A stretch of 64,000 nt of DNA, from positions 1,531 through 65,530 of the forward strand of contig JAHJKD010000050.1 in assembly GCA_018822435.1 (NCBI GenBank), given 5' to 3'. Below, one piece after another: positions 1,973 to 38,529 of this stretch. Position 1 is the first letter of the stretch. Every line of letters begins with the position of its first letter. This stretch comes from Patescibacteria group bacterium. Its GTDB lineage: Bacteria > Patescibacteriota > Patescibacteriia > UBA9570 > JAHJKD01. The notes under the pieces were generated by a model. The model did no database searches and had not been told where the DNA came from. It saw nothing but the letters and a program-made list of their open reading frames with translations. The translations under genes and the position numbers were made by a program.

Positions 1973-2053
1973 TTATTTATGATAATTAATATTATTAGAT
2001 TTATATTTTACCATTCCGCTGATAATTTCTCAAGATATTATCAATGGGATGGG

Positions 2054-2086
2054 GGAGTTCGGAAAAGGAGGGGGAAACCGAACTCC
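2054..2086 (-). terminator. Hairpin terminator of the GC-rich aminotransferase gene
   Basis: Perfect 9-bp stem ggagttcgg/ccgaactcc with a 15-nt loop, immediately 3' of the minus-strand ORF that ends at 2117. Confidence 0.45.
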
Positions 2087-2116
2087 GGGTGGGAAAAGGA
2101 AGGAAGGCGCCGCACA

Positions 2117-3265
2117 TCAGATCTCCGACGGATCCGGGACATCCGTATGCCACTCCGCGGGAATCTCGAATCCAGGCAGGAGCCGTTCGACCGTAGGCAT
2201 GTCCCGCCGGACCATGGCCCAGTAGGACTCGGCTGCTTTCGCCAGGAGGGGATGGGGCTCGCCGCGCCGTGCGAACGGGGCATCGATGGGCTTGGGATTG
2301 AGGCTGCGTTCCAGCCATTCGAGGTAGGCGTCGCCCTCGCCGTCATGGAAGACTCCCAGAGGCGGGTTCTCGTTGGTGGCTCGCATCACGGCCTGTACGG
2401 GCACGAAGCCGGACCAGGATCCAGAGACCGAAAATCCCTCGGCCTCGACCAGTTCGTGGCGGCTGACAGGCTTCTCTGCCACCGTGACACCCATGTGCTC
2501 GAAGATCTTGATCATGGTGGCCCGCGTCAGCCCGGGCAGGCACCACGAGTGCAGGTCAGGCGTGACCACGGTGTTCTCGTCCTGGAAGACGAAGAACAGG
2601 TTGGATCCGGTCGTCTCAGCCAGATCGTCTCCTTCGTGCGTCATGCCCAGGACTTCGTTGCAGCCGTACCACTTGGCCACCACGCCCTTGAACTTGGCGC
2701 CCAGGGGGTAGTTGGCCGCCGACTTGATGTGCGGGTAGCCGTTGTAGGGGCTGGCCCGCCGGAACAAACGTCCCGGGAAAAGCAAGTTGATGCCGAATTC
2801 GCCCTCAGGCAGTTTGAGGTACTCAGTCAGATCACGCGTGATGATCTGCCAGTCGGCCGTGCCCGTGGCGTGCACCCCGAGCTCTTCGCCCCAGGCCCCG
2901 CCGAAGATGCGGAGGTACACGTCCTGGGCCTGAGTCAGCTCAGCTGCGTTCAAAGAGGCAATCTTGACCATGGCCGTCAGAACTTGCTCGGCCGTAGGAA
3001 TCGTCTCCCGCGGCAAGCCCAGGGCCATCATATTCCGAACCAGTCGCCGAGCGTGGTCCGGACCGCGGAAGATGCGCCGCTTGCCGTCCGCGCACATCCA
3101 GGCTCCGGCCCCGCCGAAGATGCGTGTGCCGTAGTGGCCGTCGTGCCGGTACGGGCTGTGCCCGATCCCGCCGGTCTCGCGAATCTCGCCCTGGACGATC
3201 ATGTGGGTGTGATGGTAGGAACCATCCGCACCCTCGAAACTGTAAACCAAAGGCTTGACGCCCAT
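2117..3265 (-). CDS. Class IV aminotransferase, branched-chain amino acid aminotransferase-like; GC-rich foreign-looking gene
   Basis: 382-aa ORF with blocks shared with actinobacterial IlvE (NLFFVF, VTPDLHSWCLPGLTR, KFKGVVAKW). Strongly GC-rich with G/C-ending codons. RBS ggaagga upstream. The overlapping plus-strand 447-aa ORF is an antisense artefact. Confidence 0.65.
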   Translation of the reverse strand: MGVKPLVYSFEGADGSYHHTHMIVQGEIRETGGIGHSPYRHDGHYGTRIFGGAGAWMCADGKRRIFRGPDHARRLVRNMMALGLPRETIPTAEQVLTAMVKIASLNAAELTQAQDVYLRIFGGAWGEELGVHATGTADWQIITRDLTEYLKLPEGEFGINLLFPGRLFRRASPYNGYPHIKSAANYPLGAKFKGVVAKWYGCNEVLGMTHEGDDLAETTGSNLFFVFQDENTVVTPDLHSWCLPGLTRATMIKIFEHMGVTVAEKPVSRHELVEAEGFSVSGSWSGFVPVQAVMRATNENPPLGVFHDGEGDAYLEWLERSLNPKPIDAPFARRGEPHPLLAKAAESYWAMVRRDMPTVERLLPGFEIPAEWHTDVPDPSEI

Positions 3266-3474
3266 TTTCTTTTCCTTCCGTTAATGTGAGTTGTCAATTA
3301 ACTTTCTTATAATAAAACAGACCCCTCCTTTTTAGAACTCCTTTTTGGTCTGTATTAGCTTGTTTAAATTACTGGAAATACTAAAAAAAATCAAGCTTAA
3401 GTGATTTGACATAAGCCAGGTAAAATAATAAGCTTTGGCCACCTTGACAACCTACCAAAAGGAGGGGGAAACCC

Positions 3475-4332
3475 ATGAAACTCACGACCGCACTGGTCAT
3501 CGCGTCCGCCATCACCTTCACTCCGTTTTGCTTCGCACAGATGGATGAAGGGCCCGAACCCGGGGCTGTCCGGTCACCGGGCGAGCCTGTCGACATGTGC
3601 CGCAGCCTTTATGGCTGGGTGCCCTGTTCCGAGGATATGGAGATCACTCATGTCTGTTTCGACCGGTCTTCCAGCTTCAACTGCCTTGACTGCACCATCA
3701 CCATGGCCCTGCTCGGCGTTCTCGATTCCGACCCGCAGAGCATGATCAACACGACCGCCGGCTGCCTCATGAACAACTTCACCCCGGAAGCCTGGGCCGA
3801 ACTCGAACACTGGGAGAAAGACTACACCAGCTCCCTGGGCCCGGCCTTGGCTGGCAAGGACATCGCCGACCTGCTCCAGAACAGTGTTTACATGGCCCGG
3901 TTTGCTTCCTACAATCTCATCTGCAAAGACAAGACCGAGGTGATCCCAGAATCCTTGACCGAGTACGTCACTTTCTGGCGAGAATCCTCCTGGGATGATC
4001 GCGCCCCCTTGCCGGTCATGATCGCCGAAGCTGCTTTTGAAGAGCATCTTGAAGCTCAAGCCTACCTCTTCTCCTTCAACTGCCTCGCCTTTTACCCGCG
4101 CACGCGTGGCAGCCCGCCCATCTACTTCACCCCGGAAGAAGACAGCGAAGCCGAACTTGGAGCCGCCTTGGTTGCTTTCCTTGCCCATCAAAAAATCACG
4201 GCCATCGCCGTGATCAAGGACTCGCCGGAGCAAGCTGCTCTAGAAGCCAAGGACTGGAAGGTCTGTCCTTCTGCCGCCACTGACAACTTCAACGTCGTCA
4301 TCCCCCCACCGATCGTCTACCACTTCCTCTGA
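3475..4332 (+). CDS. Secreted Cys-rich hypothetical protein (GC-rich island gene)
   Basis: 285-aa ORF. N-terminal signal peptide MKLTTALVIASAITFTPFCFA, many Cys. Strong SD aaaaggaggggga 5 nt before the ATG. GC-rich. Confidence 0.55.
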   Translation: MKLTTALVIASAITFTPFCFAQMDEGPEPGAVRSPGEPVDMCRSLYGWVPCSEDMEITHVCFDRSSSFNCLDCTITMALLGVLDSDPQSMINTTAGCLMNNFTPEAWAELEHWEKDYTSSLGPALAGKDIADLLQNSVYMARFASYNLICKDKTEVIPESLTEYVTFWRESSWDDRAPLPVMIAEAAFEEHLEAQAYLFSFNCLAFYPRTRGSPPIYFTPEEDSEAELGAALVAFLAHQKITAIAVIKDSPEQAALEAKDWKVCPSAATDNFNVVIPPPIVYHFL

Positions 4333-4353
4333 TGCCGTCAAGGCACCTCATCG

Positions 4354-4386
4354 CCTCGGCAGTCTGCTACCCGCATTCTGCCGAGG
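4354..4386 (+). terminator. Hairpin terminator of the secreted-protein gene
   Basis: Perfect 9-bp stem cctcggcag/ctgccgagg with a 15-nt loop. Same architecture as the hairpin at 2054-2086. Confidence 0.45.
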
Positions 4387-4398
4387 CCGCCCACTTCT

Positions 4399-4433
4399 TG
4401 ACTTTTAAACAAAAATATGATAAAATTATTATA
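4399..4433 (+). promoter_or_regulatory. Sigma70-like promoter (TTGACT-17-TAAAAT) upstream of ORF 4458
   Basis: ttgactt ttaaacaaaaatatga taaaat, read directly. Confidence 0.4.
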
Positions 4434-14289: not shown

Positions 14290-15576
14290 TTATTTTATCT
14301 TTTTGACTTCCTTCACAAACTGTTCCCCTCTCATAAATTCATTCATGACCGGCAACCAAGTCAAGCCAGGCGATAACAATATCACATCGCCCTCTTCGGA
14401 AAGCTCCCAGGCCTTTTTTACCGCGTCCTTCATGTCCACGGCTTCCAGGCCGGCGGGCAGGTCCTTATTGGCGTTGCCCGGCAGTAAAATCAAGATCTTG
14501 GCTTTCTTGGCGATCTCCTGGCTGAACTGCTTCAGATCTAATCCCTTGGAATTGCCTCCGGAAATCAGGATAATGTCATTTTCAAACGCACTCAAAGCCG
14601 CCACCCCCGCGTCCGGGCTGGTCGCGGTCGTGTCATTATAAAATTCCCGGCCCTGGTGTTCCCGCACCAGTTCCAGGCGGTTAGGCACGCCCCGGAAATT
14701 CTCCACTACCTGGCGCGCCGCCTTTTTCGACACCTTAAATATATCCGCCACTCTCATGGCCGCGTCGGCATTGGCCAGATTATGCCTGCCTTTGATGTGC
14801 TTGGGCGTGAAATCGATCTCTGTAAAATAATAGCCATAGGCCGGCGTATGATGGATCATCTTGTTTACGACCGGATCACGCCGGTTCAGCACGACATAAT
14901 CATCTTCGGTCTGATTTTTTAAAATATTTTCTTTGTCTTTCCTATACTCCGCCATAGATCTATAAAAATTCAGGTGATCAGGCAGTAAATTTGTCATCAC
15001 GGCCACATTAAATCTTTCTTTCTTCAGTTCATGCAACTGGAATGAAGAAACTTCTAAAACCACAATATCTCCTTTTTTTATATCATCCACAAAATTCAGG
15101 GGCGAATTGCCGACATTGCCTCCGATCCAGACTTTGTTCTTAAATTTCTTCCTTAATATCTCATAAATCAAAAAAGTCGTGGTCGTCTTACCCCGCGTGC
15201 CGGTCACGCCTACGACTTTTACGTCCTTGTCTTTTATTTCATTGAAAAAGAGAGAGAGGTCATTCACGATCGGGGTGCCTTCTTTTCCGGCCACGGCCAG
15301 ATATTCCGAATCCCAATGCACGCCCGGGTTCCGCACTACCAGATCCCGGCCTTTAAAATCTTCTTTCCTGTGTTTGCCTAAGACTAGCTGGATATTTTTA
15401 AATTTTTTCAGCTGATTTATTGTGCTGGGGTTTAATTGCGACTTTTTTTTATGATCTGTCACAATAACGCGCGCGCCTTTTCGCGCCAAAAACCGGGCCG
15501 CGGAAAAACCAGAGCCTTTTTCAATGACCCCGAGCCCCATGACCGTGATTTTTTTATCTTTATATGAATCAATCAT
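14290..15576 (-). CDS. murD: UDP-N-acetylmuramoylalanine--D-glutamate ligase
   Basis: 428 aa. N-terminal Rossmann GLGVIEKGSG, P-loop GVTGTRGKTTTT. Confidence 0.85.
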   Translation of the reverse strand: MIDSYKDKKITVMGLGVIEKGSGFSAARFLARKGARVIVTDHKKKSQLNPSTINQLKKFKNIQLVLGKHRKEDFKGRDLVVRNPGVHWDSEYLAVAGKEGTPIVNDLSLFFNEIKDKDVKVVGVTGTRGKTTTTFLIYEILRKKFKNKVWIGGNVGNSPLNFVDDIKKGDIVVLEVSSFQLHELKKERFNVAVMTNLLPDHLNFYRSMAEYRKDKENILKNQTEDDYVVLNRRDPVVNKMIHHTPAYGYYFTEIDFTPKHIKGRHNLANADAAMRVADIFKVSKKAARQVVENFRGVPNRLELVREHQGREFYNDTTATSPDAGVAALSAFENDIILISGGNSKGLDLKQFSQEIAKKAKILILLPGNANKDLPAGLEAVDMKDAVKKAWELSEEGDVILLSPGLTWLPVMNEFMRGEQFVKEVKKIK

Positions 15577-16573
15577 TTGCTACTCCCAGGCCCACGACTT
15601 TCCTCACATTCTCCATGGTCGGCTGTGCCAGCTTGGCCGCTTCTTTAGCCCCATTCGTTAAAATCTTTTCCAGCTTAGGCTGATCATCAATATATTCTTT
15701 ATATTTTTTCTGAATCGGTTCAATAAATTCCACCACGGCTTCGGCCAGGCCTTTCTTGAAATCGCCATAACCTTTGCCCGCATATTCCTTTTCCAAAGAT
15801 TTTATATTTTTTTCCGTCACCAGCGAATAAATAGTCAACAAATTAGAAATCGCCGGTTTTTTCTCCTCGTCAAATTTCACCTCTGACCCGGAATCTGTCA
15901 CTGCCTTCATGATCTTCTTCCTGATTTTGTCCGGTTCATCGGTCATGGCAATGTAATTATTTCCACTACTCGCTGATTTGCTCATTTTTGATGTCGGATC
16001 ATCTAATCCCATAATTCTGGCGCCCACTTCCGGCAACAGTGCTTCCGGCTCTTCAAACACCTGGCCATATTTATTGTTCACTCTATGGGCAATGTCCCGT
16101 GTCAGCTCGACATGTTGTCTCTGATCTTCGCCCACTGGAACTTTATTGGTCTGATATAAAAGAATATCCGCTGCCATCAAGGCCGGATAAGTGAATAAAC
16201 CAGCATTAATATTTTGCTTATGCCTTTGTGATTTATCTTTAAATTGCGTCATGCGCTCCAATTCACCCATTTGCGTATTGCAATTCAGCACCCATGCTAA
16301 TTCTGTATGTGCTGAAACATCTGACTGCACAAATATAATCGCCTTTTTCGGATCTAATCCTGACGCCAGATAAATCGCCGCTAGTTCTCTGATATTTTTC
16401 TGCAGTTCTTCCGGCTCCTGCTGTACCGTAATCGCATGCATATCCACAATGCAAAAAATGGAAAAATATTTATCCTGTAAATCAATCCATTGTTTGATCG
16501 CACCAAGATAATTTCCTAAGTGAATTACACCGCTAGGTTGTATGCCTGAAAATACTATTTTTTTATTTGTCAT
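15569..16573 (-). CDS. trpS: Tryptophan--tRNA ligase
   Basis: HIGH-like GNYLGA, KMSKS. Start placed at the internal ATG (MTNKKIVFSGIQPSG). The 110-aa N-terminal extension of the tracked ORF runs through the upstream promoter and GC-rich island and is spurious. A TATAAT sits 6 nt before the ATG (leaderless). Confidence 0.9.
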   Translation of the reverse strand: MTNKKIVFSGIQPSGVIHLGNYLGAIKQWIDLQDKYFSIFCIVDMHAITVQQEPEELQKNIRELAAIYLASGLDPKKAIIFVQSDVSAHTELAWVLNCNTQMGELERMTQFKDKSQRHKQNINAGLFTYPALMAADILLYQTNKVPVGEDQRQHVELTRDIAHRVNNKYGQVFEEPEALLPEVGARIMGLDDPTSKMSKSASSGNNYIAMTDEPDKIRKKIMKAVTDSGSEVKFDEEKKPAISNLLTIYSLVTEKNIKSLEKEYAGKGYGDFKKGLAEAVVEFIEPIQKKYKEYIDDQPKLEKILTNGAKEAAKLAQPTMENVRKVVGLGVAND

Positions 16574-16690
16574 AAAATAATTATACAATAAAAAATACCG
16601 TCTATCAAGCAGACTTTTTCCTTGACTATATCTCAATAAAAAGCTAAAAATACCCCACCACCCGTACCACCACCAAGGAGGAAAAAATCC

Positions 16691-16948
16691 ATGAAAGCGA
16701 GAATCATCGACCCTGGCACAAATTCTTTGGTCCTCTGGCTCATAGTCGAGGTGAATGAAGGCGAAATCGCCATCAAGCCCAGTAAAGGGGGGATCGAAGT
16801 AGCTGTGTTCGTCTCCGGCTGGTTTCCGGACACAATCATCGGGGAGACTGAGGTGCCGGAAGATTTGGTCGAGAAGGCAGTCGCCCATCTCCGGACCAAG
16901 CACGAGCTCGACCAGCTGGCCAACCAGCTCAAGGAGATCCTGCGCTGA
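16691..16948 (+). CDS. Hypothetical protein, GC-rich island gene
   Basis: 85-aa ORF. SD accaaggagg 7 nt upstream. TTGACT-17-TAAAAT promoter. Imperfect GC-rich hairpin follows the stop. Confidence 0.5.
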   Translation: MKARIIDPGTNSLVLWLIVEVNEGEIAIKPSKGGIEVAVFVSGWFPDTIIGETEVPEDLVEKAVAHLRTKHELDQLANQLKEILR

Positions 16949-17020
16949 GTGGAGGGGGCGGGCGGCGGCTCATCAAAAAGCTGCCGTCCTCCCTCCAATC
17001 TAGTAACAATCACTTCATAT

Positions 17021-17055
17021 AAAAACGGCCCGCCTATCAAGCGAATTTTTTTTAT
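17021..17055 (+). terminator. Degenerate copy of the recurrent terminator repeat
   Basis: aaaaacggcccgcctatcaagcgaatttttttt. ctatcaagc loop as in the six copies downstream. Confidence 0.4.
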
Positions 17056-17115
17056 TCTTGTAAAAAAAGGATTTTTGTAGTATAAAGGAACCACCTAAGT
17101 ATTTACTTCAAACAT

Positions 17116-17934
17116 ATGAAAAAAATATTCTTATTCCCTATTCTGGGCATTTTATTATTTACTATTAATTTCTTAGCGACTCCTTCAACCAAAGCATTTA
17201 GCACCGCCACTCATCCCATAGTTATAGATAATATATTAATGGGAGGATCGGGAAATGATGTTTGGATAGATGCTTCATATGGTAAGTATTGGGATTTAAA
17301 AGGAAAAAAATACAAGTTGTATAAAATGCGTTCTTATATTGGCAAAGGTACGGGCAGTGGAATATACCAAGGCCCTCCATCCATGACAGAAATTGTGAGA
17401 ATGAAAAATAATGGGACATATCTGAATAATTTTGTGGCCATCAGAAGCAATTGGAAATTTTTCCCTCAAAAGATAAGGAAGGGCAGTAAAAAATCTCCTA
17501 CTTATAAAAAAGTTATCAAAAAAATATTACGCAGGAATGATTTAGGCCATTTAAAGCCAAAGATCAAACAAATTTACAAAGTTGACCTGGATGGTAATGG
17601 CACCAAAGAAAAAATTATTCATGCTTCCAATATTGATTTTAATAATCCAAATTACTATCAGGAAAAAAATACTTATTCAGTCGTATTTGTAAGAAAGTTA
17701 GTAAATGGAAAAAAGAAAAATATTATTTTGAGGAAAAGCTTTTACACAGAAGACGGAGATTTTGAAGACGGCCCTACATATTCGCATCGCATCCGCGCTA
17801 TCGGCGATTTTAACGGGGATGGAAGAATGGAGGTCGTAGTTGAGACAAGATACTATGAAGGAACTGGATTTTCAATCTTTGAAGTAAAAAAGAAAAAAGC
17901 CGTGCCTGTACTCAGTAACGGCTCAGGAGCATAA
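17116..17934 (+). CDS. Secreted protein with FG-GAP/VCBS-like Ca-binding repeats
   Basis: 272 aa. Signal peptide. DLDGNGTKE and GDFNGDGRMEVVV motifs. Confidence 0.5.
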   Translation: MKKIFLFPILGILLFTINFLATPSTKAFSTATHPIVIDNILMGGSGNDVWIDASYGKYWDLKGKKYKLYKMRSYIGKGTGSGIYQGPPSMTEIVRMKNNGTYLNNFVAIRSNWKFFPQKIRKGSKKSPTYKKVIKKILRRNDLGHLKPKIKQIYKVDLDGNGTKEKIIHASNIDFNNPNYYQEKNTYSVVFVRKLVNGKKKNIILRKSFYTEDGDFEDGPTYSHRIRAIGDFNGDGRMEVVVETRYYEGTGFSIFEVKKKKAVPVLSNGSGA

Positions 17935-17942
17935 TATAAATA

Positions 17943-17972
17943 AAACGACCCGCCTTCCAAGCGGGTCTTTTC
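17943..17972 (+). terminator. Recurrent intrinsic-terminator repeat, copy 2
   Basis: aaaacgacccgccttccaagcgggtcttttctt. Confidence 0.7.
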
Positions 17973-18023
17973 TTATTTAAAAAAAATATGATATTATTAC
18001 ATTGAAAGGAATAAATTATATTT

Positions 18024-18761
18024 ATGGCAAATAATATGGAAGGGCGACGGCCAGCTCAAGAGCTGGAGTCAGCCAAAAATGTTACTAAAGAAGAGCTGGA
18101 AAAAATCGCCAAGAAAAAATTGAATTTTATGGTGAAAAAGGATGGATTAATTCTTGCTAGCTCGTTTGAAGATCTCAATTTGGGGGATGATGCCCAAGAC
18201 ACTGAAGGCAGTCCTTATGAATGGTTCCAAATCTTTGATGAAAAAGACCATCCCTACCGAATTGAAGGTAATGATGTCGTTCTTTATCGGAAGGAATGTC
18301 ATGGAAAAGGAAGAATTGAGAACGTTTATCATCGCGGCACCGATGTTTGGATAGTGAACCCAAAGAACGAACTCATGGTCCCTGTTAGAAGTGCAAAAAA
18401 AGACCTCTACTCCTCTATGGGAGACAACAGTGTAAGTGAACATAATAGCATAAGAGAGCCGTATTTAGGCACTGCCGTTAGGGGTTTCCAAGAAGAGCTT
18501 GGAATATCGGTCCCCCCTGAAGGACTATCCCTTGTGTGCAAATTTCCAGTGCATGATAAAAATCAATGGCAATGGTCTCAATATTACGTATTTCCCGATA
18601 AAGAAGGAAAATATAATCCGTCTGAAGAAGAAATAGGGGAAGTCCGCTGGATTCCCTTACAAAATTTATTTACAGAGGAAGGGATAAAAAAAATAAATTT
18701 TCGACTAGACCATTTACCCGCTCTAAAAGTATTTCTAGAAAAAATAAAAAATAAAAAATAA
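18024..18761 (+). CDS. NUDIX-like hydrolase (divergent Nudix box)
   Basis: 245 aa. GDNSVSE...RGFQEELGI resembles GX5EX7REUXEEXGU, with an insertion. Confidence 0.45.
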   Translation: MANNMEGRRPAQELESAKNVTKEELEKIAKKKLNFMVKKDGLILASSFEDLNLGDDAQDTEGSPYEWFQIFDEKDHPYRIEGNDVVLYRKECHGKGRIENVYHRGTDVWIVNPKNELMVPVRSAKKDLYSSMGDNSVSEHNSIREPYLGTAVRGFQEELGISVPPEGLSLVCKFPVHDKNQWQWSQYYVFPDKEGKYNPSEEEIGEVRWIPLQNLFTEEGIKKINFRLDHLPALKVFLEKIKNKK

Positions 18762-18770
18762 AAAAACGCC

Positions 18771-18802
18771 CGCCTATCAAGCGGGTCTTTTTTATCCCTT
18801 TA
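18771..18802 (+). terminator. Recurrent terminator repeat, copy 3
   Basis: aaaaacgcccgcctatcaagcgggtctttttt. Confidence 0.7.
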
Positions 18803-18832
18803 CATTCAGACTTTTTTTGATAAAATATCAAT

Positions 18833-19531
18833 ATGGGAGAAAAATACGAATACAATCAAAGTGGTGCAGAAGCCTACAAAGAATTAGGTATCGAGGGAAC
18901 TACATATGAAATGTCATTCTCTGAGATGAAAAGGATGCTTGGAAATATTCAAGGCATGAATTTTTTAGATTTCGGCTGCGGTTCAGGTCGTAGCGCACGA
19001 TTCCTAAAAACTCTCGGCGCTAAAAACGTCATTGGTGTTGATCATAATGAATCTATGATAAAACAGGCCAAGGCAACGGCAGTACAAGGGATTGATTTCA
19101 GGCTGATCAAAGAAAAAATTCCTCTAGACGATGATTCCGTTGACGGCGTAATTAGTTCAGCAGTTTTCTTAGAAATAAAAAATTTGGCTGATATGGAAAA
19201 AACGGCCAGGGAAATTGCCCGAGTTCTCAAGCCCGGTGGCGTATTCATACTAGTTACCGTAAATCCGGACGCCTTCGGGCATGATTTTGTAAGTTTTACC
19301 AGAACAGGAAACCCTGCAGAACTCGAAAGCGGCGATATGACTGAATGCCGGATGAAAGGAAAAAAACCATTTGTAATAGATGATATATTCTGGACCGAAG
19401 ACGATTATAGACAAGTGCTTGAATCAGCCGGTTTTACCATCGAAGATATTGTTTTCCCGAAAGCAGAATCAGGTAATTGGCTGGATGAAACAAATGTCGC
19501 ACCTGATATGGTCATAAAAGCAACAAAATAA
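18833..19531 (+). CDS. Class I SAM-dependent methyltransferase
   Basis: 232 aa. FLDFGCGSGRSARFL, VLKPGGVFIL. Confidence 0.75.
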   Translation: MGEKYEYNQSGAEAYKELGIEGTTYEMSFSEMKRMLGNIQGMNFLDFGCGSGRSARFLKTLGAKNVIGVDHNESMIKQAKATAVQGIDFRLIKEKIPLDDDSVDGVISSAVFLEIKNLADMEKTAREIARVLKPGGVFILVTVNPDAFGHDFVSFTRTGNPAELESGDMTECRMKGKKPFVIDDIFWTEDDYRQVLESAGFTIEDIVFPKAESGNWLDETNVAPDMVIKATK

Positions 19532-19563
19532 AACGACCCGCCTATCAAGCGGGTCTTTTTTAA
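19531..19563 (+). terminator. Recurrent terminator repeat, copy 4
   Basis: aaacgacccgcctatcaagcgggtctttttt. Confidence 0.7.
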
Positions 19564-19614
19564 TTTTTTAACCACTTCTTCTGAACACCAAAATTTGATA
19601 TACAAAAGAAGGGG

Positions 19615-19646
19615 CGGGGGCATGGTTCTTGCGAACGCAGCCCCCG
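19615..19646 (-). terminator. Hairpin terminator of the small membrane-protein gene
   Basis: 7-bp stem cgggggc/gcccccg with a 17-nt loop, followed on the minus strand by ttctttt. Confidence 0.45.
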
Positions 19647-19677
19647 TTTGATCCCGTAAACTACCGAAGCATCCACG

Positions 19678-19923
19678 TCACTCTTCATCCTCGTCCTTCG
19701 TATCCTCCTCTTCTTTTTCCTCATTTTTTTCCTGAACAAGACGTGCGATGCTTTCAGGAATCTGACTGACTAGTAAACCTAAGAAGAAAAGAGACAGTGC
19801 TATAGCCATACAAAGCACGACAATCGCAACCTCTGCGTTCCCATTGAAAACACATATGCAAGCCAAACCAGAAGAGAGGAAAAAAGTAGCCATCCATAAA
19901 GGGAATACGATACTTTTTGTCAT
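19678..19923 (-). CDS. Small two-TM membrane protein with acidic C-terminal tail
   Basis: 81 aa. SD taggaggt 6 nt upstream. Two hydrophobic helices, tail EEKEEEDTKDEDEE. Confidence 0.5.
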   Translation of the reverse strand: MTKSIVFPLWMATFFLSSGLACICVFNGNAEVAIVVLCMAIALSLFFLGLLVSQIPESIARLVQEKNEEKEEEDTKDEDEE

Positions 19924-20082
19924 GGTAACCTCCTAATAGGTGGATGAAGTTGTTAACGGTCGCCTGTTCCGGATTCGCCGGCAACTTATTTTGCCGACTA
20001 AATCACTAGATACAGGATAGGCGACCTTACCATTTCAGCGATCCCTTGTCAATAGTCGCTCTTGAATAATTATTATCAATAA

Positions 20083-20115
20083 AAACACCCGCCTATCAAG
20101 CGGGTCTTTTCTTTA
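20083..20115 (+). terminator. Recurrent terminator repeat, copy 5
   Basis: aaaaacacccgcctatcaagcgggtcttttcttt. Confidence 0.65.
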
Positions 20116-20168
20116 ATAAAAATAATATTTCTGATATATTTAATCATATCTAGATAAATAAACATTTT

Positions 20169-20639
20169 ATGCCACAAAATAATTCAAGACCAGCTAAAAA
20201 ACCTTTTACGGAAAACGAACAAGTTCTTCTAAGGAATAAAGCAATTGATAAAATCAAAGACCTTTTTCTGCCTAATGATAAAATTCTGAAAATAATTCTT
20301 ATTGGATCTTCTGTGAAGGGATCTTTTGGGGAATATGGACCGCCCGGTTTCAGAAACAGCCTATTTTCTGATTTTGATTTCATTTTCTTTGTAAAAGACG
20401 ATTATGAAATTCCTGATTGGTTAAAAAAAGAACCGTCGGGAAAACCTTTCACTGACGACAGTCTTAATCTTGCCTATCGCAACGCAAAAATGGTCGACGA
20501 TAAATATGATATCGAATTTTTCTTTATCAGGGAAGAGAATCTGGATGATAATAATTTTATCGAAGAAGGAGAAGGGGCAGGCATTCCTTTGAAAAAGAAT
20601 TCAAAAATTGAACATCTGACTATTTTTGAAAAAAAATAA
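20169..20639 (+). CDS. Minimal nucleotidyltransferase (Pol-beta superfamily) domain protein
   Basis: 156 aa. GSSVKGSFGEY...SDFDF matches the GS-x(n)-DxD NTase motif. Confidence 0.6.
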   Translation: MPQNNSRPAKKPFTENEQVLLRNKAIDKIKDLFLPNDKILKIILIGSSVKGSFGEYGPPGFRNSLFSDFDFIFFVKDDYEIPDWLKKEPSGKPFTDDSLNLAYRNAKMVDDKYDIEFFFIREENLDDNNFIEEGEGAGIPLKKNSKIEHLTIFEKK

Positions 20640-20640
20640 A

Positions 20641-20670
20641 AACGATCCGCCTATCAAGCGGGTCTTTTTT
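20641..20670 (+). terminator. Recurrent terminator repeat, copy 6
   Basis: aacgatccgcctatcaagcgggtctttttt. Confidence 0.7.
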
Positions 20671-20696
20671 ATTTAAAGTAATTTTAGAAAAATAGT

Positions 20697-20722
20697 GGGA
20701 CTGAATGTAAGGATTCAGTCCC
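20697..20722 (-). terminator. Hairpin 3' of the GC-rich Cys-rich gene
   Basis: Perfect 10-bp stem gggactgaat/attcagtccc with a 6-nt loop. T-rich on the minus strand after the stem. Confidence 0.45.
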
Positions 20723-20757
20723 GGGGGAAACAACCGCGCCTTACCGCGGGTGCGACG

Positions 20758-21156
20758 CTAGGCCACTTCGTCGAAGTAGTCCCAGCGCGCCTCATCGATC
20801 TCCTCCACGACCGCCTCGCACATCATGTAGATCATGACGTCGCGCAGCGTGATGTGAGCGGAATGGTCGACGTTGCACTCGAAACCGCAGTAGCACTCAC
20901 AGCAAGATTCCTCGCGGACACCGACGATGCCTCTAGCGGTCTGATCCAGATCCAGCCCATCCAGCATCATGTCCTCGGTGTAGCGGAACAGGACGGCGTC
21001 GGTCATATCCGACGCGCGACCGTAAGCCGCCCGCCAGGTCGAGTCCGTCTCCTTCCACCAGTGATCCGGGCCGAAATGGTCCATGATCCGGCGAGCGAGC
21101 CGCTCGATCAGGTAGGAGGAATCATGCCGGTTACCCTTTTGTTGTACGTTCATCAC
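20758..21156 (-). CDS. Cys-rich hypothetical protein (CCECYCGFEC), GC-rich island gene
   Basis: 132-aa ORF. Nearly every codon ends in G/C (checked by hand). SD aaaggag upstream. Divergent from the MerR-GHKL gene. Confidence 0.5.
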   Translation of the reverse strand: MMNVQQKGNRHDSSYLIERLARRIMDHFGPDHWWKETDSTWRAAYGRASDMTDAVLFRYTEDMMLDGLDLDQTARGIVGVREESCCECYCGFECNVDHSAHITLRDVMIYMMCEAVVEEIDEARWDYFDEVA

Positions 21157-21279
21157 GTATCTCCTTTCAGGAGTTTTACCGCACCTGCTCCATGCAGGAC
21201 GGCGATGGCAATGCCATCATTGAGGGTCAATCTGTATATCACATTTTTTCAATTTTGTCAATAGTAATCCATAAAAATA

Positions 21280-21309
21280 TTGACAAATTCTATAATATTT
21301 GCTAATATT
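21280..21309 (+). promoter_or_regulatory. Sigma70-like promoter TTGACA-(17/18)-TAATAT for the MerR-GHKL operon
   Basis: ttgaca aattctataatatttgc taatat. Confidence 0.45.
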
Positions 21310-21337
21310 TACATAGGTTTACATAGGTTTACATAGA
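21308..21337 (+). promoter_or_regulatory. Three tandem 10-bp direct repeats (tttacatagg x3), candidate operator
   Basis: tttacatagg tttacatagg tttacataga, between the -10 and the ATG at 21343. Confidence 0.5.
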
Positions 21338-21342
21338 TTATT

Positions 21343-22083
21343 ATGAAAGAAAAATTACATTCAATCGGAGAAACAGCTAACATTATTGGAGTTTCTATTG
21401 ATACTCTACGAAAATGGGATAAAAAAGGCATTTTGCCTTCTTTTCGACCTTCACCTACCAGTAAAAGATACTATCGCCAAGAAGATATTGATGCTTTTTT
21501 AGCAAAAGAAACCCAACTAGATCTGAAATCCATGGCTGAAAAATGGGCCATTGATCCATCTCCTTCTCCCCTGTCCCCGGAATTATATTGCCAGACAAGC
21601 GATGTTTTTCATGCTCGCCTGCAACATCTAGAGGTAGAAATAGCCCGCGTACCTAAATTAAAAGATATTTTTCCCTTAATCGTCGCTGTTATTGGTGAAA
21701 TCGGCAATAATTCTTTCAACCATAACATTGGCAATTGGCCGGATGAGCCAGGCATATTTTTTGGATACGACCTAAAAAACCGCCAAGCTGTTCTGGCTGA
21801 CCGAGGCCAAGGCATCTTAAAAACTCTGAAGCGTGTAGTGCCGGATTTGAAAAACGACCAAACTGCCCTAAAAGTTGCTTTCACCGAATATATTTCCGGC
21901 CGCGCCCCCGAAGACAGGGGCAATGGCCTGAAATTCGTCCGGGACGTAGTGACGGAAAATCCGATACAGCTAAAATTCTTTACCGGTGAGGCGCAACTGG
22001 AGTTAGAACAAAATACAGCTGATTTAGATATTAAAAAAAGCGATCTTTCCTTCCATGGCTGCATCGCCATAATAAATTTCTAA
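21343..22083 (+). CDS. MerR-family HTH fused to GHKL (RsbW-like HATPase_c) serine-kinase/ATPase domain
   Basis: 246 aa. N-terminus IGETANIIGVSIDTLRKWDKKGIL...YYRQEDID (MerR HTH). C-terminus N-box EIGNNSFNH, G1 DRGQGI, G2 GNGLKFV. Confidence 0.65.
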   Translation: MKEKLHSIGETANIIGVSIDTLRKWDKKGILPSFRPSPTSKRYYRQEDIDAFLAKETQLDLKSMAEKWAIDPSPSPLSPELYCQTSDVFHARLQHLEVEIARVPKLKDIFPLIVAVIGEIGNNSFNHNIGNWPDEPGIFFGYDLKNRQAVLADRGQGILKTLKRVVPDLKNDQTALKVAFTEYISGRAPEDRGNGLKFVRDVVTENPIQLKFFTGEAQLELEQNTADLDIKKSDLSFHGCIAIINF

Positions 22084-22100
22084 CATCCTAATCCTATACT

Positions 22101-22385
22101 ATGAATATTTATCTAAAAAAATTTGGTACTACTCTCGTTTCCCGGCCGGCCGGCAAAGAGGCTTGGCTCGCGCTCCAACCCAATCTTAAGGAATTAGAAG
22201 AAAACGAAAAAATAATTATTGATTTCAAAGGCGTGGCCGTGCTTACCCCTTCCTGGGCGGATGAAGTCGTCTCACCTTTAAAAGACAATTTTCAAAATCA
22301 GATCAGTCTGATAAATACGGAAAATCCGTCTGTCCAAGCCACATTAACTACACTAAAAAAAGCAAAGCAAGACCAAAAATCTTAG
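22101..22385 (+). CDS. STAS-like (DUF4325) anti-sigma-antagonist-type partner protein
   Basis: 94 aa. IIDFKGVAVLTPSWADEVV matches the DUF4325/STAS core. 17 nt downstream of the kinase gene. Confidence 0.55.
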   Translation: MNIYLKKFGTTLVSRPAGKEAWLALQPNLKELEENEKIIIDFKGVAVLTPSWADEVVSPLKDNFQNQISLINTENPSVQATLTTLKKAKQDQKS

Positions 22386-22465
22386 TAAAAATTAAAATTT
22401 TATTAATATTTGAATCCATCTATTGATACAATGTATACAAACTTTCTTAGATGTACATGAAAAAT

Positions 22466-22494
22466 AATTCCGCCGTTCAAGCGGGTCTTTTTTG
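22466..22494 (+). terminator. Recurrent terminator repeat, copy 7
   Basis: aattccgccgttcaagcgggtcttttttg. Confidence 0.6.
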
Positions 22495-22547
22495 ACTTAT
22501 CTATGCAAATTGCTATAAAATAGAATAGTAAACAAAAAAATAATTTC

Positions 22548-23021
22548 ATGAACAAGCAAGAAGCCCGAAGACCGACTCCTGAAAAACAAGAAATAAAAAA
22601 AGTTGAAATTGGCAATCTCGATGAGTTTGATATGGATTATTTCCACCAATTAGAGGGCGAAGACGGTTGGATCGCTATAGGACAAGATAATTGCCAAAAC
22701 CAAAAATATTTCACTCTAGGAGGAACAGAAGGAGACAAACTAGGAATAATCGGTGTTTTTGACACGGATGAAGATTCAAATATCACCCACACTGTAATTG
22801 ATCCAAAATTCCGTGGTCAAAGGCTGGCCAGCCGAGCCAAGCACGAATTGATGGACAAACTGAATCTGCCTTTTATTACTATGATAATAGATTTGGATAA
22901 TCTTCCCTCTATCAAAGCGACAGAAAAAATCCCTGGCGTTAAAAGAGTGAGCGATGATACTTATGAAGAAGAATTTCATAAGGTCAAACTTGTTTATGAA
23001 AAACCTCCAACAAATACCTAA
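22548..23021 (+). CDS. GNAT-family acetyltransferase-like protein
   Basis: 157 aa. VIDPKFRGQRLASRA resembles GNAT motif A. Confidence 0.4.
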   Translation: MNKQEARRPTPEKQEIKKVEIGNLDEFDMDYFHQLEGEDGWIAIGQDNCQNQKYFTLGGTEGDKLGIIGVFDTDEDSNITHTVIDPKFRGQRLASRAKHELMDKLNLPFITMIIDLDNLPSIKATEKIPGVKRVSDDTYEEEFHKVKLVYEKPPTNT

Positions 23022-23037
23022 AAATTAACTTAAAAAC

Positions 23038-23427
23038 ATGCTAGAATCATTTGAAGTTTCCGATATATTCCCGGTCAGCCCAGAAGAATTATATTCTGCC
23101 TGGTTAGATAGTAAAAAACATGGTGCCTTTACTGGCAGCAAAGCCAAAATCGATCCTAAAGTCGGGGGAAAATTTACGGCTTGGGACGGATACATTGAAG
23201 GTGAGACTGTAAAGCTCGAACCAAATAAAAAAATCTTGCAAAAATGGCGCACGACTGAATTCCCTGAAGATAGCAAGGATTCAAAACTTGAATTAATATT
23301 TGAGGAAGTTGATGAAGGCACTAAACTGACTATTAAACATTCTGATGTGCCTGAAGGCCAAGCGAAAAACTATAAACCAGGTTGGGATGAATCTTATTTC
23401 CAGCCCATGCAAGAATATTTTGAATAA
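23038..23427 (+). CDS. SRPBCC / AHSA1 (Aha1-like, Bet v1 fold) domain protein
   Basis: 129 aa. Typical AHSA1-family length and LYSAWLD...KFTAWDGYIEGE pattern. Confidence 0.55.
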   Translation: MLESFEVSDIFPVSPEELYSAWLDSKKHGAFTGSKAKIDPKVGGKFTAWDGYIEGETVKLEPNKKILQKWRTTEFPEDSKDSKLELIFEEVDEGTKLTIKHSDVPEGQAKNYKPGWDESYFQPMQEYFE

Positions 23428-23446
23428 TTAAAAATAAAATAATTTT

Positions 23447-24718
23447 ATGGAAGAAAAGATTTCTGAAAAAAAGGAAGTTGTCACAGAACCAAATCCAAAA
23501 CCAAAGAAAAAAAAGTCGACTCTAATTATAATTATTGTCATTGTTATTATAGCCCTACTATTGATCGGCAGTGTAATTGGCGTAGGAATTTATTTTTGGT
23601 CAAAATCAAACCAAGAAAAGCAAGATCAAGCCGCCCTCCAAATGCAATTAGAAGGCTTAGTCGCTGAAGCAGAAACATATATTGACGATTACGAATATGA
23701 ACCAGCCATTAAGGCGGCCACGCAAGCCATAAATTTAAGCCAAAATTATGTCCCGGCGTTAATAACCCGGTGTAAAGCCTACCGCAAAGACGAACAATAT
23801 GAAAAAGCTTATGCTGATTGCGACAAAGCCATTGAACTGAATCCGAATTCTGCCCGCGCTTATCATAACCGGGCCTACATTTATTTAAATGAGGAAAAAT
23901 ATGAAAAAGGCATTGCCGACGCCCAGAAAGCGATTGAATTAAATCCGCAAAACGCAAAAGGCTACACGGCATTATGTTGGGCCTACGGCGATCAAGGCAA
24001 ATATGAAGATGCCACCCTGCAATGCAACAAAGCCATTGAACTTGACCCCAACGATGACTTTCCGCACAGCCTGATTTGTTATGACTTGCGCGAACTAGGA
24101 AAAACAGAAAAGGCTCTCCAAGAATGCAATGAAGCGATTGAACTTGACCCGGAATATTCCTGGGCTTACCGCAACCGCGCCCTTGTCTATGAGGATAAGG
24201 AAAATTGGGACAAAGTCATTGCTGACACAACTAAGGCAATCAAATTAAGAGAAGACTTTGCCCATGCCTATGATATTCGCGGCTTCGCTTATTTTAAGCA
24301 AAAAAAATATAATAAAGCTAAGGAAGATTATAATAAAGCCATTAAGCTTGATCCGGAAAATGAATATTTTTTCTATGACCGTGCTTATTTAAACGAAAAA
24401 CAAGGCGACTGCGATAAAGCCATTGAAGATTACACCAAAGCGATTGAAATATACAAAGATTACCAGCAGGCTTATTCCAGCCGCGGTTATTGTTATACGG
24501 AATTAGAAAAATGGGACAAAGCGATTGATGATCTTAAAAAAGCCGTCAAACTGGACCCGAAAGATAAATACGCATTTAACAATCTTGGTTATGCCTATGA
24601 TAATCTTGAAGATTATGACAATGCTCTAAAATACTACGAAAAAGCGGTTGAACTTGATCCTGATTATGAAATCGCGATTGAAAATGTAAAAGGATTAAAA
24701 GAATTCCTTAATCAATAG
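23447..24718 (+). CDS. TPR-repeat protein with N-terminal TM helix
   Basis: 423 aa. At least 9 repeats of the type AxxxxxxAIELxPxxAxAYxNRGxxY. Confidence 0.8.
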   Translation: MEEKISEKKEVVTEPNPKPKKKKSTLIIIIVIVIIALLLIGSVIGVGIYFWSKSNQEKQDQAALQMQLEGLVAEAETYIDDYEYEPAIKAATQAINLSQNYVPALITRCKAYRKDEQYEKAYADCDKAIELNPNSARAYHNRAYIYLNEEKYEKGIADAQKAIELNPQNAKGYTALCWAYGDQGKYEDATLQCNKAIELDPNDDFPHSLICYDLRELGKTEKALQECNEAIELDPEYSWAYRNRALVYEDKENWDKVIADTTKAIKLREDFAHAYDIRGFAYFKQKKYNKAKEDYNKAIKLDPENEYFFYDRAYLNEKQGDCDKAIEDYTKAIEIYKDYQQAYSSRGYCYTELEKWDKAIDDLKKAVKLDPKDKYAFNNLGYAYDNLEDYDNALKYYEKAVELDPDYEIAIENVKGLKEFLNQ

Positions 24719-37366: not shown

Positions 37367-37370
37367 AACT

Positions 37371-37404
37371 AAATATCCTACCCCTTAAGGGGCAGGATAT
37401 TTAG
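37371..37404. terminator. Near-perfect 16-bp palindrome between convergent pcrA and a small minus-strand ORF (bidirectional terminator candidate)
   Basis: aaatatcctacccctt/aaggggcaggatattt. Confidence 0.4.
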
Positions 37405-37413
37405 TTTTTATTT

Positions 37414-37554
37414 TTATTTTTCCTTCAATTTCTGCAAATCAAAAACGGCCTTGCCTGAGACTTTCATTTTAGGCTTTTTTGTTTTCTTCTGCTGCCGTCG
37501 TTTTGACTTGGCTTCAGCTTTCTTTTCTAACTCATGAGAGTGGTTGTTCTTCAT
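37414..37554 (-). CDS. Small basic protein (46 aa), hypothetical
   Basis: MKNNHSHELEKKAEAKSKRRQQKKTKKPKMKVSGKAVFDLQKLKEK. Below the ORF-track size cutoff. Confidence 0.3.
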   Translation of the reverse strand: MKNNHSHELEKKAEAKSKRRQQKKTKKPKMKVSGKAVFDLQKLKEK

Positions 37555-37668
37555 GAGTGTATTATATAAAACGAACTAGAATTTGAAAAGAAGGAGGGGG
37601 AGGATTTCGGGAGGGGGAGGAGGATCCGAGGGGTTATGCCGAAGCAAAACCACACGGACCTCCTTCCC

Positions 37669-37998: not shown

Positions 37999-38108
37999 CT
38001 CTCTGCCTCCTTTAAATACTCACCCCCTTGCAGGGGGCTATGCGGCTTGATTGCCGACGGTAAAACTTACAATTTTTCTTGAATTAAGTCAATATTGTTA
38101 TCTACATT

Positions 38109-38200
38109 GACAAATTAGCAAAAATATGATATTATATATATAATATAAGCCAAACCTTGACATTATAAGCAAATTGCGCTAATATAATTCGTTTTACTAT
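38109..38200 (+). promoter_or_regulatory. Two tandem sigma70-like promoters (TTGACA-17-TATTAT; TTGACA-17-TAATAT) upstream of 38215
   Basis: Read directly from the sequence. Confidence 0.45.
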
Positions 38201-38511: not shown

Positions 38512-38529
38512 TTATTATATCTATATACT

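What the first reader, a model, noticed from the sequence alone, without database searches (positions are those of the whole stretch)
17021..22494. Array of single-gene cassettes each ending in the same terminator-like repeat
Seven plus-strand copies of (a)acccgcctatcaagcgggtctttttt occur at 17021, 17943, 18771, 19531, 20083, 20641 and 22466. The unit has a 6-bp stem, a ctatcaa loop and a T-run. The first copy is degenerate. Further degenerate relatives lie at 16603-16630 and, inverted, at 47743. One copy follows each gene in a run of unrelated accessory genes. These encode an FG-GAP-like secreted protein, a Nudix-like protein, a SAM-MTase, an MNT-type nucleotidyltransferase and the kinase/STAS pair. 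The spurious ORFs containing KKTRLIGG in the track are these repeats translated. Near-identity of the terminators suggests recent duplication or recombination-driven cassette shuffling. This would be an integron-like or hot-spot organisation that uses a terminator-shaped repeat as the junction.
Basis: seen in the sequence. Interest (0 to 1): 0.55.

Follow-up and report, generated by a model that had tools for sequence, protein, structure and literature searches.

The report
Shared terminator repeat bounding gene cassettes
In a small uncultured (Patescibacteria) bacterium, eight copies of one 34-base terminator hairpin separate unrelated accessory genes in a 6-kb variable hot spot, and a related strain lacks exactly one repeat-to-repeat unit, so the repeat marks where genes are gained or lost, although no integron machinery is present.

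Summary
Eight same-strand copies of a ~34-nt unit (A-tract, 6-7 bp GC stem, loop CTATCAA, T-tract) lie at 16588-22493. No other significant copy occurs in the 64 kb, and the window's other strong terminators all have different sequences. So this is not the organism's generic terminator.

The window is contig JAHIYR010000040.1 of a Patescibacteria MAG. The array fills a hot spot between trpS and a TPR gene. A relative with 90% identical TrpRS keeps both flanks but shares only one of the intervening genes.

A closer relative, seen in two metagenome assemblies, has MTase, one repeat copy, then MNT. It lacks exactly the 551-bp repeat-to-repeat unit carrying an 81-aa gene. The copy after its MNT gene differs from the window's at three positions, and all three match another window copy. 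That points to gene conversion between copies.

Best reading: a lineage-specific bidirectional intrinsic terminator closes each transcription unit and serves as the recombination junction for cassette gain or loss. It works like an integron array or a 'minimal mobile element' hot spot, but it is not an integron. The sites are not attC-like, no integrase or other recombinase was found in the window, and each unit has its own promoter-like site. The recombination mechanism is unresolved.

The parts
16588..16621 (+). Repeat copy 1. Degenerate, lying between the trpS promoter and the first unit: ATAAAAAATACCGTCTATCAAGCAGACTTTTTCC.
   Evidence: D2, 68% to reference; nhmmer E=9e-7. Weak fold of -2.4 kcal/mol.
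17020..17053 (+). Repeat copy 2. The right arm has decayed (GCGAAT).
   Evidence: E=3e-9. Weak fold.
17940..17973 (+). Repeat copy 3, with loop variant CTTCCAA. It starts 13 nt after the stop codon of the 272-aa gene.
   Evidence: -13.4 kcal/mol, z -4.3.
18760..18793 (+). Repeat copy 4, directly after the NUDIX gene stop codon.
   Evidence: -13.0 kcal/mol.
19528..19561 (+). Repeat copy 5, directly after the methyltransferase stop codon. It is the left boundary of the polymorphic unit.
   Evidence: The junction is shown.
20079..20112 (+). Repeat copy 6, the right boundary of the polymorphic unit, upstream of the MNT-like gene.
   Evidence: It is 33/34 identical to the relative's single junction copy.
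20637..20670 (+). Repeat copy 7, between the convergent MNT-like gene (+) and the 132-aa gene (-).
   Evidence: The orthologous copy in L045/L046 differs at 3 positions, and all 3 equal the state of copy 3.
22460..22493 (+). Repeat copy 8, with loop variant CGTTCAA and a weaker stem. It lies after the MerR-HTH/DUF4325 pair, and its T-run overlaps a TTGACT -35-like hexamer.
   Evidence: E=5e-9.
15569..16573 (-). trpS (tryptophan-tRNA ligase), the conserved left flank of the hot spot.
   Evidence: It is conserved next to the hot spot in L041.
16691..16948 (+). Unit 1: 85-aa ORF with 56% GC and no family hit.
17116..17934 (+). Unit 2: 272-aa secreted-looking protein with 34% GC. The FG-GAP hits are below threshold.
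18024..18761 (+). Unit 3: NUDIX hydrolase, 245 aa.
   Evidence: Homologues in other lineages lack the repeat.
18833..19531 (+). Unit 4: class I SAM-dependent methyltransferase, 232 aa. A promoter-like site at 18799-18826 ends 7 nt before the ATG.
19562..20078 (-). Unit 5, the polymorphic unit. It is a minus-strand unit with an 81-aa membrane ORF (19678-19923) and its own promoter-like site and hairpin. Together with one repeat copy (551 bp) it is absent from the relative L045/L046.
20169..20639 (+). Unit 6: 156-aa MNT/Pol-beta-like nucleotidyltransferase. It is the only hot-spot gene shared with L041.
20758..21156 (-). 132-aa ORF with 60% GC, a rare family. It has its own terminator hairpin at 20697-20722 (-).
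   Evidence: conserved in the relative, with codon-position differences of 29/21/42; 3 representative clusters in 1.8 billion.
21343..22385 (+). Two-gene unit. The first gene is a 246-aa protein with a MerR-type HTH and a C-terminal half that looks GHKL-ATPase-like by eye. The second is a 94-aa DUF4325 STAS-like protein.
22548..24718 (+). Genes for a GNAT-like protein (157 aa), an AHSA1/SRPBCC protein (129 aa) and a TPR protein (423 aa). The TPR gene is the conserved right flank of the hot spot.
20506..20653 (.). A 148-nt tract that is 100% identical to the relative, within an ~85% identical background. It ends in the loop of repeat copy 7.

Best explanation
The feature is an insulated accessory-gene islet whose unit boundaries are copies of one bidirectional intrinsic terminator.

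The hot spot lies between trpS and a TPR gene in a Patescibacteria chromosome. It holds independent transcription units, each with a promoter-like site and one or two genes. Every plus-strand unit ends in a copy of the same 34-nt element: A-tract, 6-7 bp GC stem, loop CTATCAA, T-tract.

As RNA, the element most likely terminates transcription from either direction. This is inferred from structure and position.

As DNA, the direct copies are short, portable stretches of identity at which units are lost or gained. They are also patches that are converted to one another, which keeps them alike. This is shown by one repeat-to-repeat indel and by one conversion-like patch in a relative.

No dedicated integrase is required in this reading. 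Recombination or slippage between direct copies removes units, and incoming DNA from relatives can be resolved at the same copies. How each unrelated gene first acquired its copy is not explained by the data and remains inferred.
For: Real and local:
- There are 8 copies against 0.01 expected by chance.
- A profile built from the copies finds only these 8 in the 64 kb.
- The other strong hairpin+T-run sites in the window all have different sequences.

Terminator-like:
- Copies start 4-13 nt after the stop codons of four co-oriented genes.
- Five copies are stable hairpins followed by T-runs, and they also score as terminators on the minus strand.

Hot spot:
- L041 (TrpRS 90% identical) keeps murI-murD-trpS on one side and the TPR and giant protein genes on the other.
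- Only MNT is shared among the genes between those flanks.

Junction:
- In L045/L046 the methyltransferase 3' end is followed by a single repeat copy and then MNT.
- Both alignment breakpoints fall inside the repeat, and exactly the 551-bp unit is missing.

Concerted evolution:
- Orthologous genes are 76-87% identical at nucleotide level, yet the repeat cores stay identical within and between genomes.
- All 3 differences of the relative's post-MNT copy reproduce the window's copy 3.
- A 148-nt perfectly identical tract ends in that copy's loop.

Orientation and origin:
- All copies share one orientation even where the enclosed unit is on the other strand.
- Unit GC content ranges from 33% to 60%, against 41% for the window.
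Against: - Only one indel polymorphism was found. Its polarity (insertion versus deletion) cannot be decided.
- The relative's contigs are short and of low coverage (2.4-3.6x). The mosaic identity tract could come from strain mixing during assembly.
- A 24-34 nt identity is at or below the usual minimum for RecA-dependent exchange.
- General recombination does not explain how eight unrelated units came to carry the same element.
- The rest of the genome could not be scanned, so copies elsewhere are not excluded.
- Termination activity is untested.
Confidence: 0.5

Rival explanations
1. A dedicated site-specific cassette system. The hairpin would be a recombination site, recognised as duplex or as folded single strand, for a recombinase or HUH nuclease encoded elsewhere in the genome. 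Units would be inserted and excised as circles carrying one site. This is integron logic with a terminator-shaped site.
For: - The copies are direct repeats in one orientation whatever the strand of the enclosed gene.
- The indel is exact, repeat to repeat, and leaves one copy.
- The loop sequence is identical in 6 of 8 window copies and in the relative's junction copy, although a terminator does not need a fixed loop.
- The geometry of 11-12 nt imperfect palindromic arms around a 7-nt asymmetric spacer would suit a tyrosine-recombinase core site. This is read from the sequence and is an inference.
- CAAG (CTTG on the bottom strand) is invariant in all 8 copies, and the bottom strand reads CTTGATA. 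From my own knowledge, this resembles the pC194/phiX174 Rep nick motif and the IS91 target. It is a lead only and was not tested.
Against: - No integrase, Xer, HUH, Cas1 or transposase domain was found in the window genes scanned.
- The site is not attC-like.
- The units have their own promoter-like sites.
- Homologues of the NUDIX and MNT genes in other lineages carry no such site.
- Exact and degenerate pattern scans of the genome, metagenome and viral collections found no other arrays.
Confidence: 0.2
2. A self-propagating small palindromic element, REP- or MITE-like. It would have inserted behind genes that were already there, independently of how those genes arrived.
For: - The unit is short, palindromic and intergenic.
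- Looser look-alikes occur at 47744 and 56206 and in L041.
Against: - All significant copies lie in 5.9 kb of the 64 kb.
- There is no RAYT or transposase in the window, and no terminal inverted repeats or target duplications around the unit.
- The polymorphism removes a whole gene unit plus one copy. It does not add or remove a copy alone.
Confidence: 0.12
3. The copies are ordinary terminators of shared descent with no role in rearrangement. The indel would be an incidental slippage deletion, and the similarity of copies would reflect recent local duplications.
For: - The element has the hairpin plus T-run architecture of a terminator.
- Deletion between short direct repeats is common (general knowledge).
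Against: - Local duplication does not explain why unrelated genes of 33-60% GC each carry a copy.
- The array is older than the split from a relative with 76-87% nucleotide identity, yet the cores and loops remain identical.
- One copy shows a conversion-like patch.
Confidence: 0.13
4. It is the organism's standard terminator, or it is an assembly artefact.
For: None beyond the terminator shape.
Against: - The other strong terminators in the window have unrelated stems and loops.
- The profile search finds nothing significant outside the array.
- The locus is identical in the NCBI MAG and in an independent Logan assembly of run SRR2544004.
Confidence: 0.03

Closest known systems
Chromosomal integron cassette arrays, and CALINs (clusters of attC sites lacking an integrase), e.g. 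Vibrio VCR arrays
   Same: Runs of unrelated, mostly single-gene units in one orientation are separated by a species-specific, near-identical imperfect palindrome. Unit presence or absence differs between relatives, with the boundary in the repeat.
   Different: - The site is a 34-nt perfect hairpin with A- and T-tracts. It is not a 57-141 bp attC with R''/L''/L'/R' boxes and extrahelical bases.
- There is no GTTRRRY core.
- No intI, attI or Pc was found.
- The units carry their own promoter-like sites.
Neisseria 'minimal mobile elements' and repeat-rich intergenic arrays (NIME/dRS3). This comparison rests on my own knowledge.
   Same: A hot spot between conserved flanking genes holds different gene content in close relatives and has no mobility genes inside. 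Exchange is thought to use general recombination, and short repeats mark the boundaries.
   Different: Here the boundary repeat is a terminator hairpin repeated after each unit. Natural transformation in this organism was not examined.
Acinetobacter plasmid pdif modules (XerC/D-dependent). This comparison rests on my own knowledge.
   Same: Small gene modules are bounded by short palindromic recombination sites and have no dedicated recombinase next to them.
   Different: pdif sites are 28-bp 11-6-11 sites in alternating orientation and resemble dif. Here the sites are direct, show no dif similarity, and are chromosomal.
REP/BIME elements of enterobacteria and pseudomonads
   Same: Both are short extragenic palindromes at gene 3' ends that can act on transcripts and serve as recombination or insertion hot spots.
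   Different: REPs are dispersed genome-wide, often as inverted pairs, and are linked to RAYT genes. Here all copies are direct, lie within 6 kb, and no RAYT gene was seen.
Phage 'morons' (promoter-gene-terminator units)
   Same: The unit anatomy is the same: own promoter-like site, one gene, and a factor-independent terminator.
   Different: There is no phage context, and here the terminator sequence is shared by all units.

Membership tests
Integron / CALIN | attC site: 57-141 bp imperfect palindrome with R''-L''...L'-R' boxes, a GTTRRRY core and extrahelical bases | tested here: not met
   The unit is ~34 nt with a perfect 6-7 bp stem, a 7-nt loop and no bulges. Its 3' side reads GCGGGTCTTTT.
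Integron / CALIN | intI tyrosine recombinase with attI and Pc next to the array (not required for a CALIN) | tested here: not met
   No recombinase domain was found among the genes of the window scanned or precomputed.
Integron / CALIN | Cassettes mostly promoterless and expressed from a common promoter | tested here: inconclusive
   Promoter-like hexamers follow most copies, for example at 18799-18826, 20113-20140, 21280-21308 and 22492-22521. These are consensus matches only.
Integron / CALIN | Cassette presence/absence between strains, with boundaries in the repeat | tested here: met
   A 551-bp repeat-to-repeat unit is absent in L045/L046. This is one event only.
Intrinsic (Rho-independent) terminator | GC-rich stem-loop immediately followed by a T-run, placed just after a co-oriented gene | tested here: met
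   This is met for copies 3-7. Copies start 4-13 nt after the stop codons. Copies 1, 2 and 8 are decayed or weak.
Intrinsic (Rho-independent) terminator | Termination of transcription in vivo or in vitro | not testable with these tools
   This needs RNA 3'-end mapping or a reporter assay.
REP/BIME (RAYT-associated) | Many copies dispersed through intergenic regions genome-wide | tested here: not met
   All 8 significant copies lie within 5.9 kb of the 64 kb. The rest of the genome was not testable.
REP/BIME (RAYT-associated) | Cognate RAYT (Y1 HUH transposase) gene | tested here: inconclusive
   None was found in the window. The remaining contigs were not searched.
CRISPR array | Regularly spaced repeats with short (~30-40 bp) non-coding spacers, plus a leader and cas genes | tested here: not met
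   Spacing is 432-1823 bp and the intervals hold genes. No cas domains were found, and there were no Rfam hits other than tRNAs.
Xer/dif-type module sites (pdif) | 28-bp 11-6-11 site resembling dif, in alternating orientation | tested here: not met
   The sites are direct copies with a 7-nt centre, and no dif-like sequence is visible. The dif consensus comparison was made from memory only.
Minimal-mobile-element type hot spot | Conserved flanking genes with different gene content between close relatives, and no mobility genes inside | tested here: met
   L041 shares both flanks but only 1 of the intervening genes. No mobility domains were found inside.

The most novel reading that the evidence does not exclude
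In this candidate-phyla-radiation lineage, a transcription-terminator hairpin may double as the attachment site of a cassette-capture system that is not an integron. Units of promoter, gene and hairpin would be inserted and excised at the hairpin by an enzyme encoded elsewhere in the genome. That enzyme could be a tyrosine recombinase acting on the 11-7-11-like core. It could instead be an HUH nuclease acting on the folded strand, whose loop-stem junction carries an invariant CTTG/CTTGATA. The same element would then insulate each captured gene transcriptionally.
Probability: 0.17. Interest if true: 0.8.

Novelty: new variant of a known kind. Interest (0 to 1): 0.5.

Why it matters
Reduced genomes of the candidate phyla radiation have few recognisable mobile elements, so how they take up and turn over accessory genes is poorly understood. 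This locus shows a compact arrangement in which one short element could do two jobs. It would stop transcription on both strands, insulating each newly acquired gene, and it would provide the joint at which genes are swapped in and out. If a dedicated enzyme acts on the hairpin, this would be a cassette system outside the integron family. If not, it is a clear natural example of terminators acting as portable recombination joints. That would matter for interpreting hypervariable regions in metagenome-assembled genomes, and for the stability of synthetic constructs that reuse terminators.

Tried and rejected
- The exact 21-mer CCGCCTATCAAGCGGGTCTTT gave 0 hits in genome contigs, viral contigs and metagenome contigs.
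- The degenerate pattern CCGCCNNNCAAGCGGGTCTTTT gave 11 and 23 loci. All were single copies in unrelated taxa, some inside coding sequence. I judged them chance or convergent hairpins, not arrays.
- Rfam found only two tRNAs.
- Phage and plasmid DNA and protein searches found no match.
- PHROGs and PADLOC gave only generic domain hits, to MADS HTH/MTase and MerR-HTH families. These were not taken as evidence for defence or phage origin.
- NUDIX homologues (<=64% identity) sit next to a tRNA in another organism, without the repeat.
- More distant MNT homologues (L047, L053) have no repeat.
- TrpRS relatives at 83% and 73% identity have no hot spot upstream of trpS.
- Exact-protein look-ups of the methyltransferase and the 81-aa ORF returned only contigs with the same neighbouring genes. 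The Logan contig compared was identical, so no strain variation was seen there.
- I considered that the GC-rich islands could be structured RNAs and rejected this. The 2-3.3 kb island is an aminotransferase gene. The 132-aa ORF has a Shine-Dalgarno-like site, is conserved in the relative with an excess of third-position changes, and has rare protein homologues.
- The 283-aa ORF next to tRNA-Met was checked as a possible integrase. It has no Pfam or PDB match and no recombinase motifs.
- A 13-mer (AATTTTGTCAATA) is shared upstream of the non-homologous GC-rich ORFs of the window and L041. It is too weak to interpret (E=0.02 in a two-sequence search).

Full report
**1. The observation**

- The 19-nt core ACCCGCCTATCAAGCGGGT matches six times at up to 3 mismatches. 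All matches are on the + strand between 17028 and 20663. Dinucleotide-preserving shuffles give a mean of 0.01 matches.
- A looser pattern, CGCCNNNCAAGCG, adds the copy at 22471.
- The repeat finder places eight copies of a 34-nt unit in register, at 16588, 17020, 17940, 18760, 19528, 20079, 20637 and 22460.
- The consensus is ATAAAACGACCCGCCTATCAAGCGGGTCTTTTTT: an A-tract, a 6-7 bp GC stem, the loop CTATCAA and a T-tract.
- Copies 3-7 fold at -10.6 to -13.5 kcal/mol with z-scores of -3.6 to -4.9. Copies 1, 2 and 8 are decayed or weak.
- The copies also score as terminators on the minus strand, with 7-9 pairs including G-T pairs and a T-run supplied by the A-tract.
- The minus-strand ORFs containing KKTRLIGG are the repeats translated.
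It is not a significant match to a profile of the eight copies (E=3.2).

**2. The repeat is local, not the general terminator**

- A scan of the whole window for strong hairpin+T-run sites finds eight loci outside the array: 5060, 29667, 39877, 46424, 47744, 55125, 56206 and 56242. Their stems and loops are unrelated to the array unit or only loosely similar.
- The profile search finds only the eight array copies at E <= 9e-7. The next best window hits have E > 1.
- The rest of the genome could not be scanned. The exact 21-mer is absent from the three searchable DNA collections. A degenerate pattern returned only single, unrelated hairpins in diverse taxa.

**3. Context**

- The window is NCBI contig JAHIYR010000040.1 of GCA_018814995.1, annotated as a 'Patescibacteria group bacterium'. 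An independent Logan assembly of run SRR2544004 is identical over the locus.
- The gene order is: trpS (-), copy 1, an 85-aa ORF (56% GC), copy 2, a 272-aa secreted-looking protein, copy 3, NUDIX, copy 4, a SAM methyltransferase, copy 5, an 81-aa membrane ORF (-), copy 6, an MNT-like nucleotidyltransferase, copy 7, a 132-aa ORF (-, 60% GC), a MerR-HTH protein plus a DUF4325 STAS-like protein, copy 8, then GNAT-like, AHSA1 and TPR genes.
- Gene GC content ranges from 33% to 60%, against 41% for the window.
- Copies begin 4-13 nt after the stop codons of four plus-strand genes.
- The two minus-strand units have their own hairpins. One example is 20697-20722.
- Promoter-like hexamer pairs follow most copies.
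- No integrase, transposase, HUH or Cas domain was found in the window genes scanned or precomputed.

**4. The region is a variable hot spot**

- A relative whose TrpRS is 90% identical (L041) keeps iPGM-murI-murD-trpS on one side and the TPR gene and the ~1680-aa surface protein gene on the other.
- Between those flanks it carries six genes, and only the MNT-like gene is shared with the window.
- L041 has three looser relatives of the hairpin: next to trpS, after MNT, and before the TPR gene.
- Relatives at 83% and 73% TrpRS identity have no hot spot at trpS.

**5. The repeat is a rearrangement junction**

- A closer relative (MNT 88% identical at protein level) was assembled independently from two samples (L045, L046). 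Its order is: methyltransferase 3' end, one repeat copy, MNT, a repeat copy, then the homologue of the 132-aa ORF.
- Relative positions 15-422 align to window 19152-19559. Relative positions 390-1600 align to window 20078-21283. The overlap between the two alignments is the repeat itself.
- In the three-way alignment, the relative's single copy has the left flank of copy 5 and the right flank of copy 6.
- So exactly one repeat-to-repeat unit is present in one lineage and absent in the other. That unit is 551 bp and holds the 81-aa gene with its own promoter-like site and hairpin.
- Polarity cannot be decided. Both insertion at the repeat and deletion between two copies fit.

**6. The copies evolve in concert**

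- Between the window and this relative, nucleotide identity is 76% over the methyltransferase 3' part, 87% over MNT and 77% over the 132-aa ORF. The repeat units are 33/34 and 32/35 identical.
- The array therefore predates this split. Even so, six of eight window copies and the relative's junction copy share the same 7-nt loop, which a terminator has no need to conserve.
- The three differences in the relative's post-MNT copy (loop CTTCCAA, tail TTTTCTTA) all reproduce the window's copy 3. This is the signature of gene conversion between copies.
- A 148-nt tract (20506-20653) is 100% identical in an ~85% identical background, and it ends in the loop of that copy.
- Caveat: the relative's contigs have 2.4-3.6x coverage. 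A mosaic of co-occurring strains cannot be excluded for the identical tract. The deletion junction is flanked on both sides by diverged sequence and is seen in two assemblies.

**7. Interpretation**

- What is shown: a lineage-specific, clustered family of terminator-shaped repeats bounds transcription units in a hot spot and is used as a recombination joint.
- What is inferred: the repeats terminate transcription in both directions, and exchange between copies removes units, admits units and homogenises the copies.
- What is not explained: how eight unrelated units each acquired a copy. A mechanism in which every incoming unit brings or duplicates one site would explain this most simply. That is why a dedicated site-specific system stays a serious rival.
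- Points in favour of that rival: the direct orientation whatever the gene strand, the conserved asymmetric centre, and arm-spacer-arm geometry like a recombinase core site.
- A further lead, from my own knowledge and untested: the bottom strand reads CTTGATA, with CTTG invariant in all eight copies. This resembles the nick or target motifs of pC194/phiX174-type Rep proteins and of IS91.
- Points against that rival: no candidate enzyme in 64 kb, no attC features, and no other arrays in public collections.

**8. Comparison with known systems**

- Functionally, the locus resembles a chromosomal integron array or a CALIN, and a 'minimal mobile element' hot spot.
- As to membership, it fails the attC and intI criteria. 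It fails the REP criterion of dispersal within the window. It fails every CRISPR criterion except repeat length.
- It meets the criteria for an intrinsic terminator by sequence, and those for a flank-conserved variable hot spot.
- I class it as a new variant of a known kind: repeat-bounded cassette arrays in which the repeat is a bidirectional terminator.

**9. Verdict**

- Interest is 0.5. The finding is a tidy and unusual arrangement with one direct piece of comparative evidence, but the mechanism is unresolved and the sample of relatives is very small.

Noticed in passing
window 47775-47816 and 49829-49901: A perfect 42-nt duplicate of the 3' end of tRNA-Met lies 2 kb from the gene. This is an att-type direct repeat. 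It brackets an HTH_17 excisionase-like gene (47996-48205), a 180-aa ORF and a 283-aa ORF with no family match. It is probably a small or decayed integrated element. No integrase is recognisable.
   Followed up: partly
window 20169-20639: The 156-aa MNT/Pol-beta-like protein belongs to a family that stays ~60% identical across many candidate-phyla-radiation bacteria and DPANN archaea (Woesearchaeota, Aenigmarchaeota, Nanoarchaeota). This is unusually high conservation across domains.
   Followed up: no
window 20676-21225 and L041 8440-8980: In both the window and the 90%-TrpRS relative, the slot just downstream of MNT holds a ~60% GC ORF of ~130 aa on the opposite strand. The two ORFs are not homologous. 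They share a 13-mer, AATTTTGTCAATA, at the promoter side. The window's ORF is a very rare family, with 3 representative clusters in 1.8 billion.
   Followed up: partly
window 2026-4400: A 2.4-kb island of 57-62% GC sits in a 41% GC genome. It contains a class IV aminotransferase gene on the minus strand (2117-3265) and a 285-aa ORF with no family hit. It is probably horizontally acquired.
   Followed up: partly
window 18799-18833: The promoter-like site TTTACA-16-TAAAAT, preceded by TG, ends 7 nt before the methyltransferase ATG. This suggests a leaderless mRNA.
   Followed up: no
window 37370-38530 versus L004 7091-8255: Between uvrD and the 98-aa gene, the Logan SRR2544004 contig has a 109-aa minus-strand gene where the MAG has a 46-aa gene call. 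This may be a second small strain-variable spot.
   Followed up: no
window 19930-20060 (minus strand): The 81-aa membrane ORF has a ~130-nt leader with a long-range pairing, GGTCGCCT...AGGCGACC, between its TTGACA-like promoter and the Shine-Dalgarno site. It gives no Rfam match.
   Followed up: no
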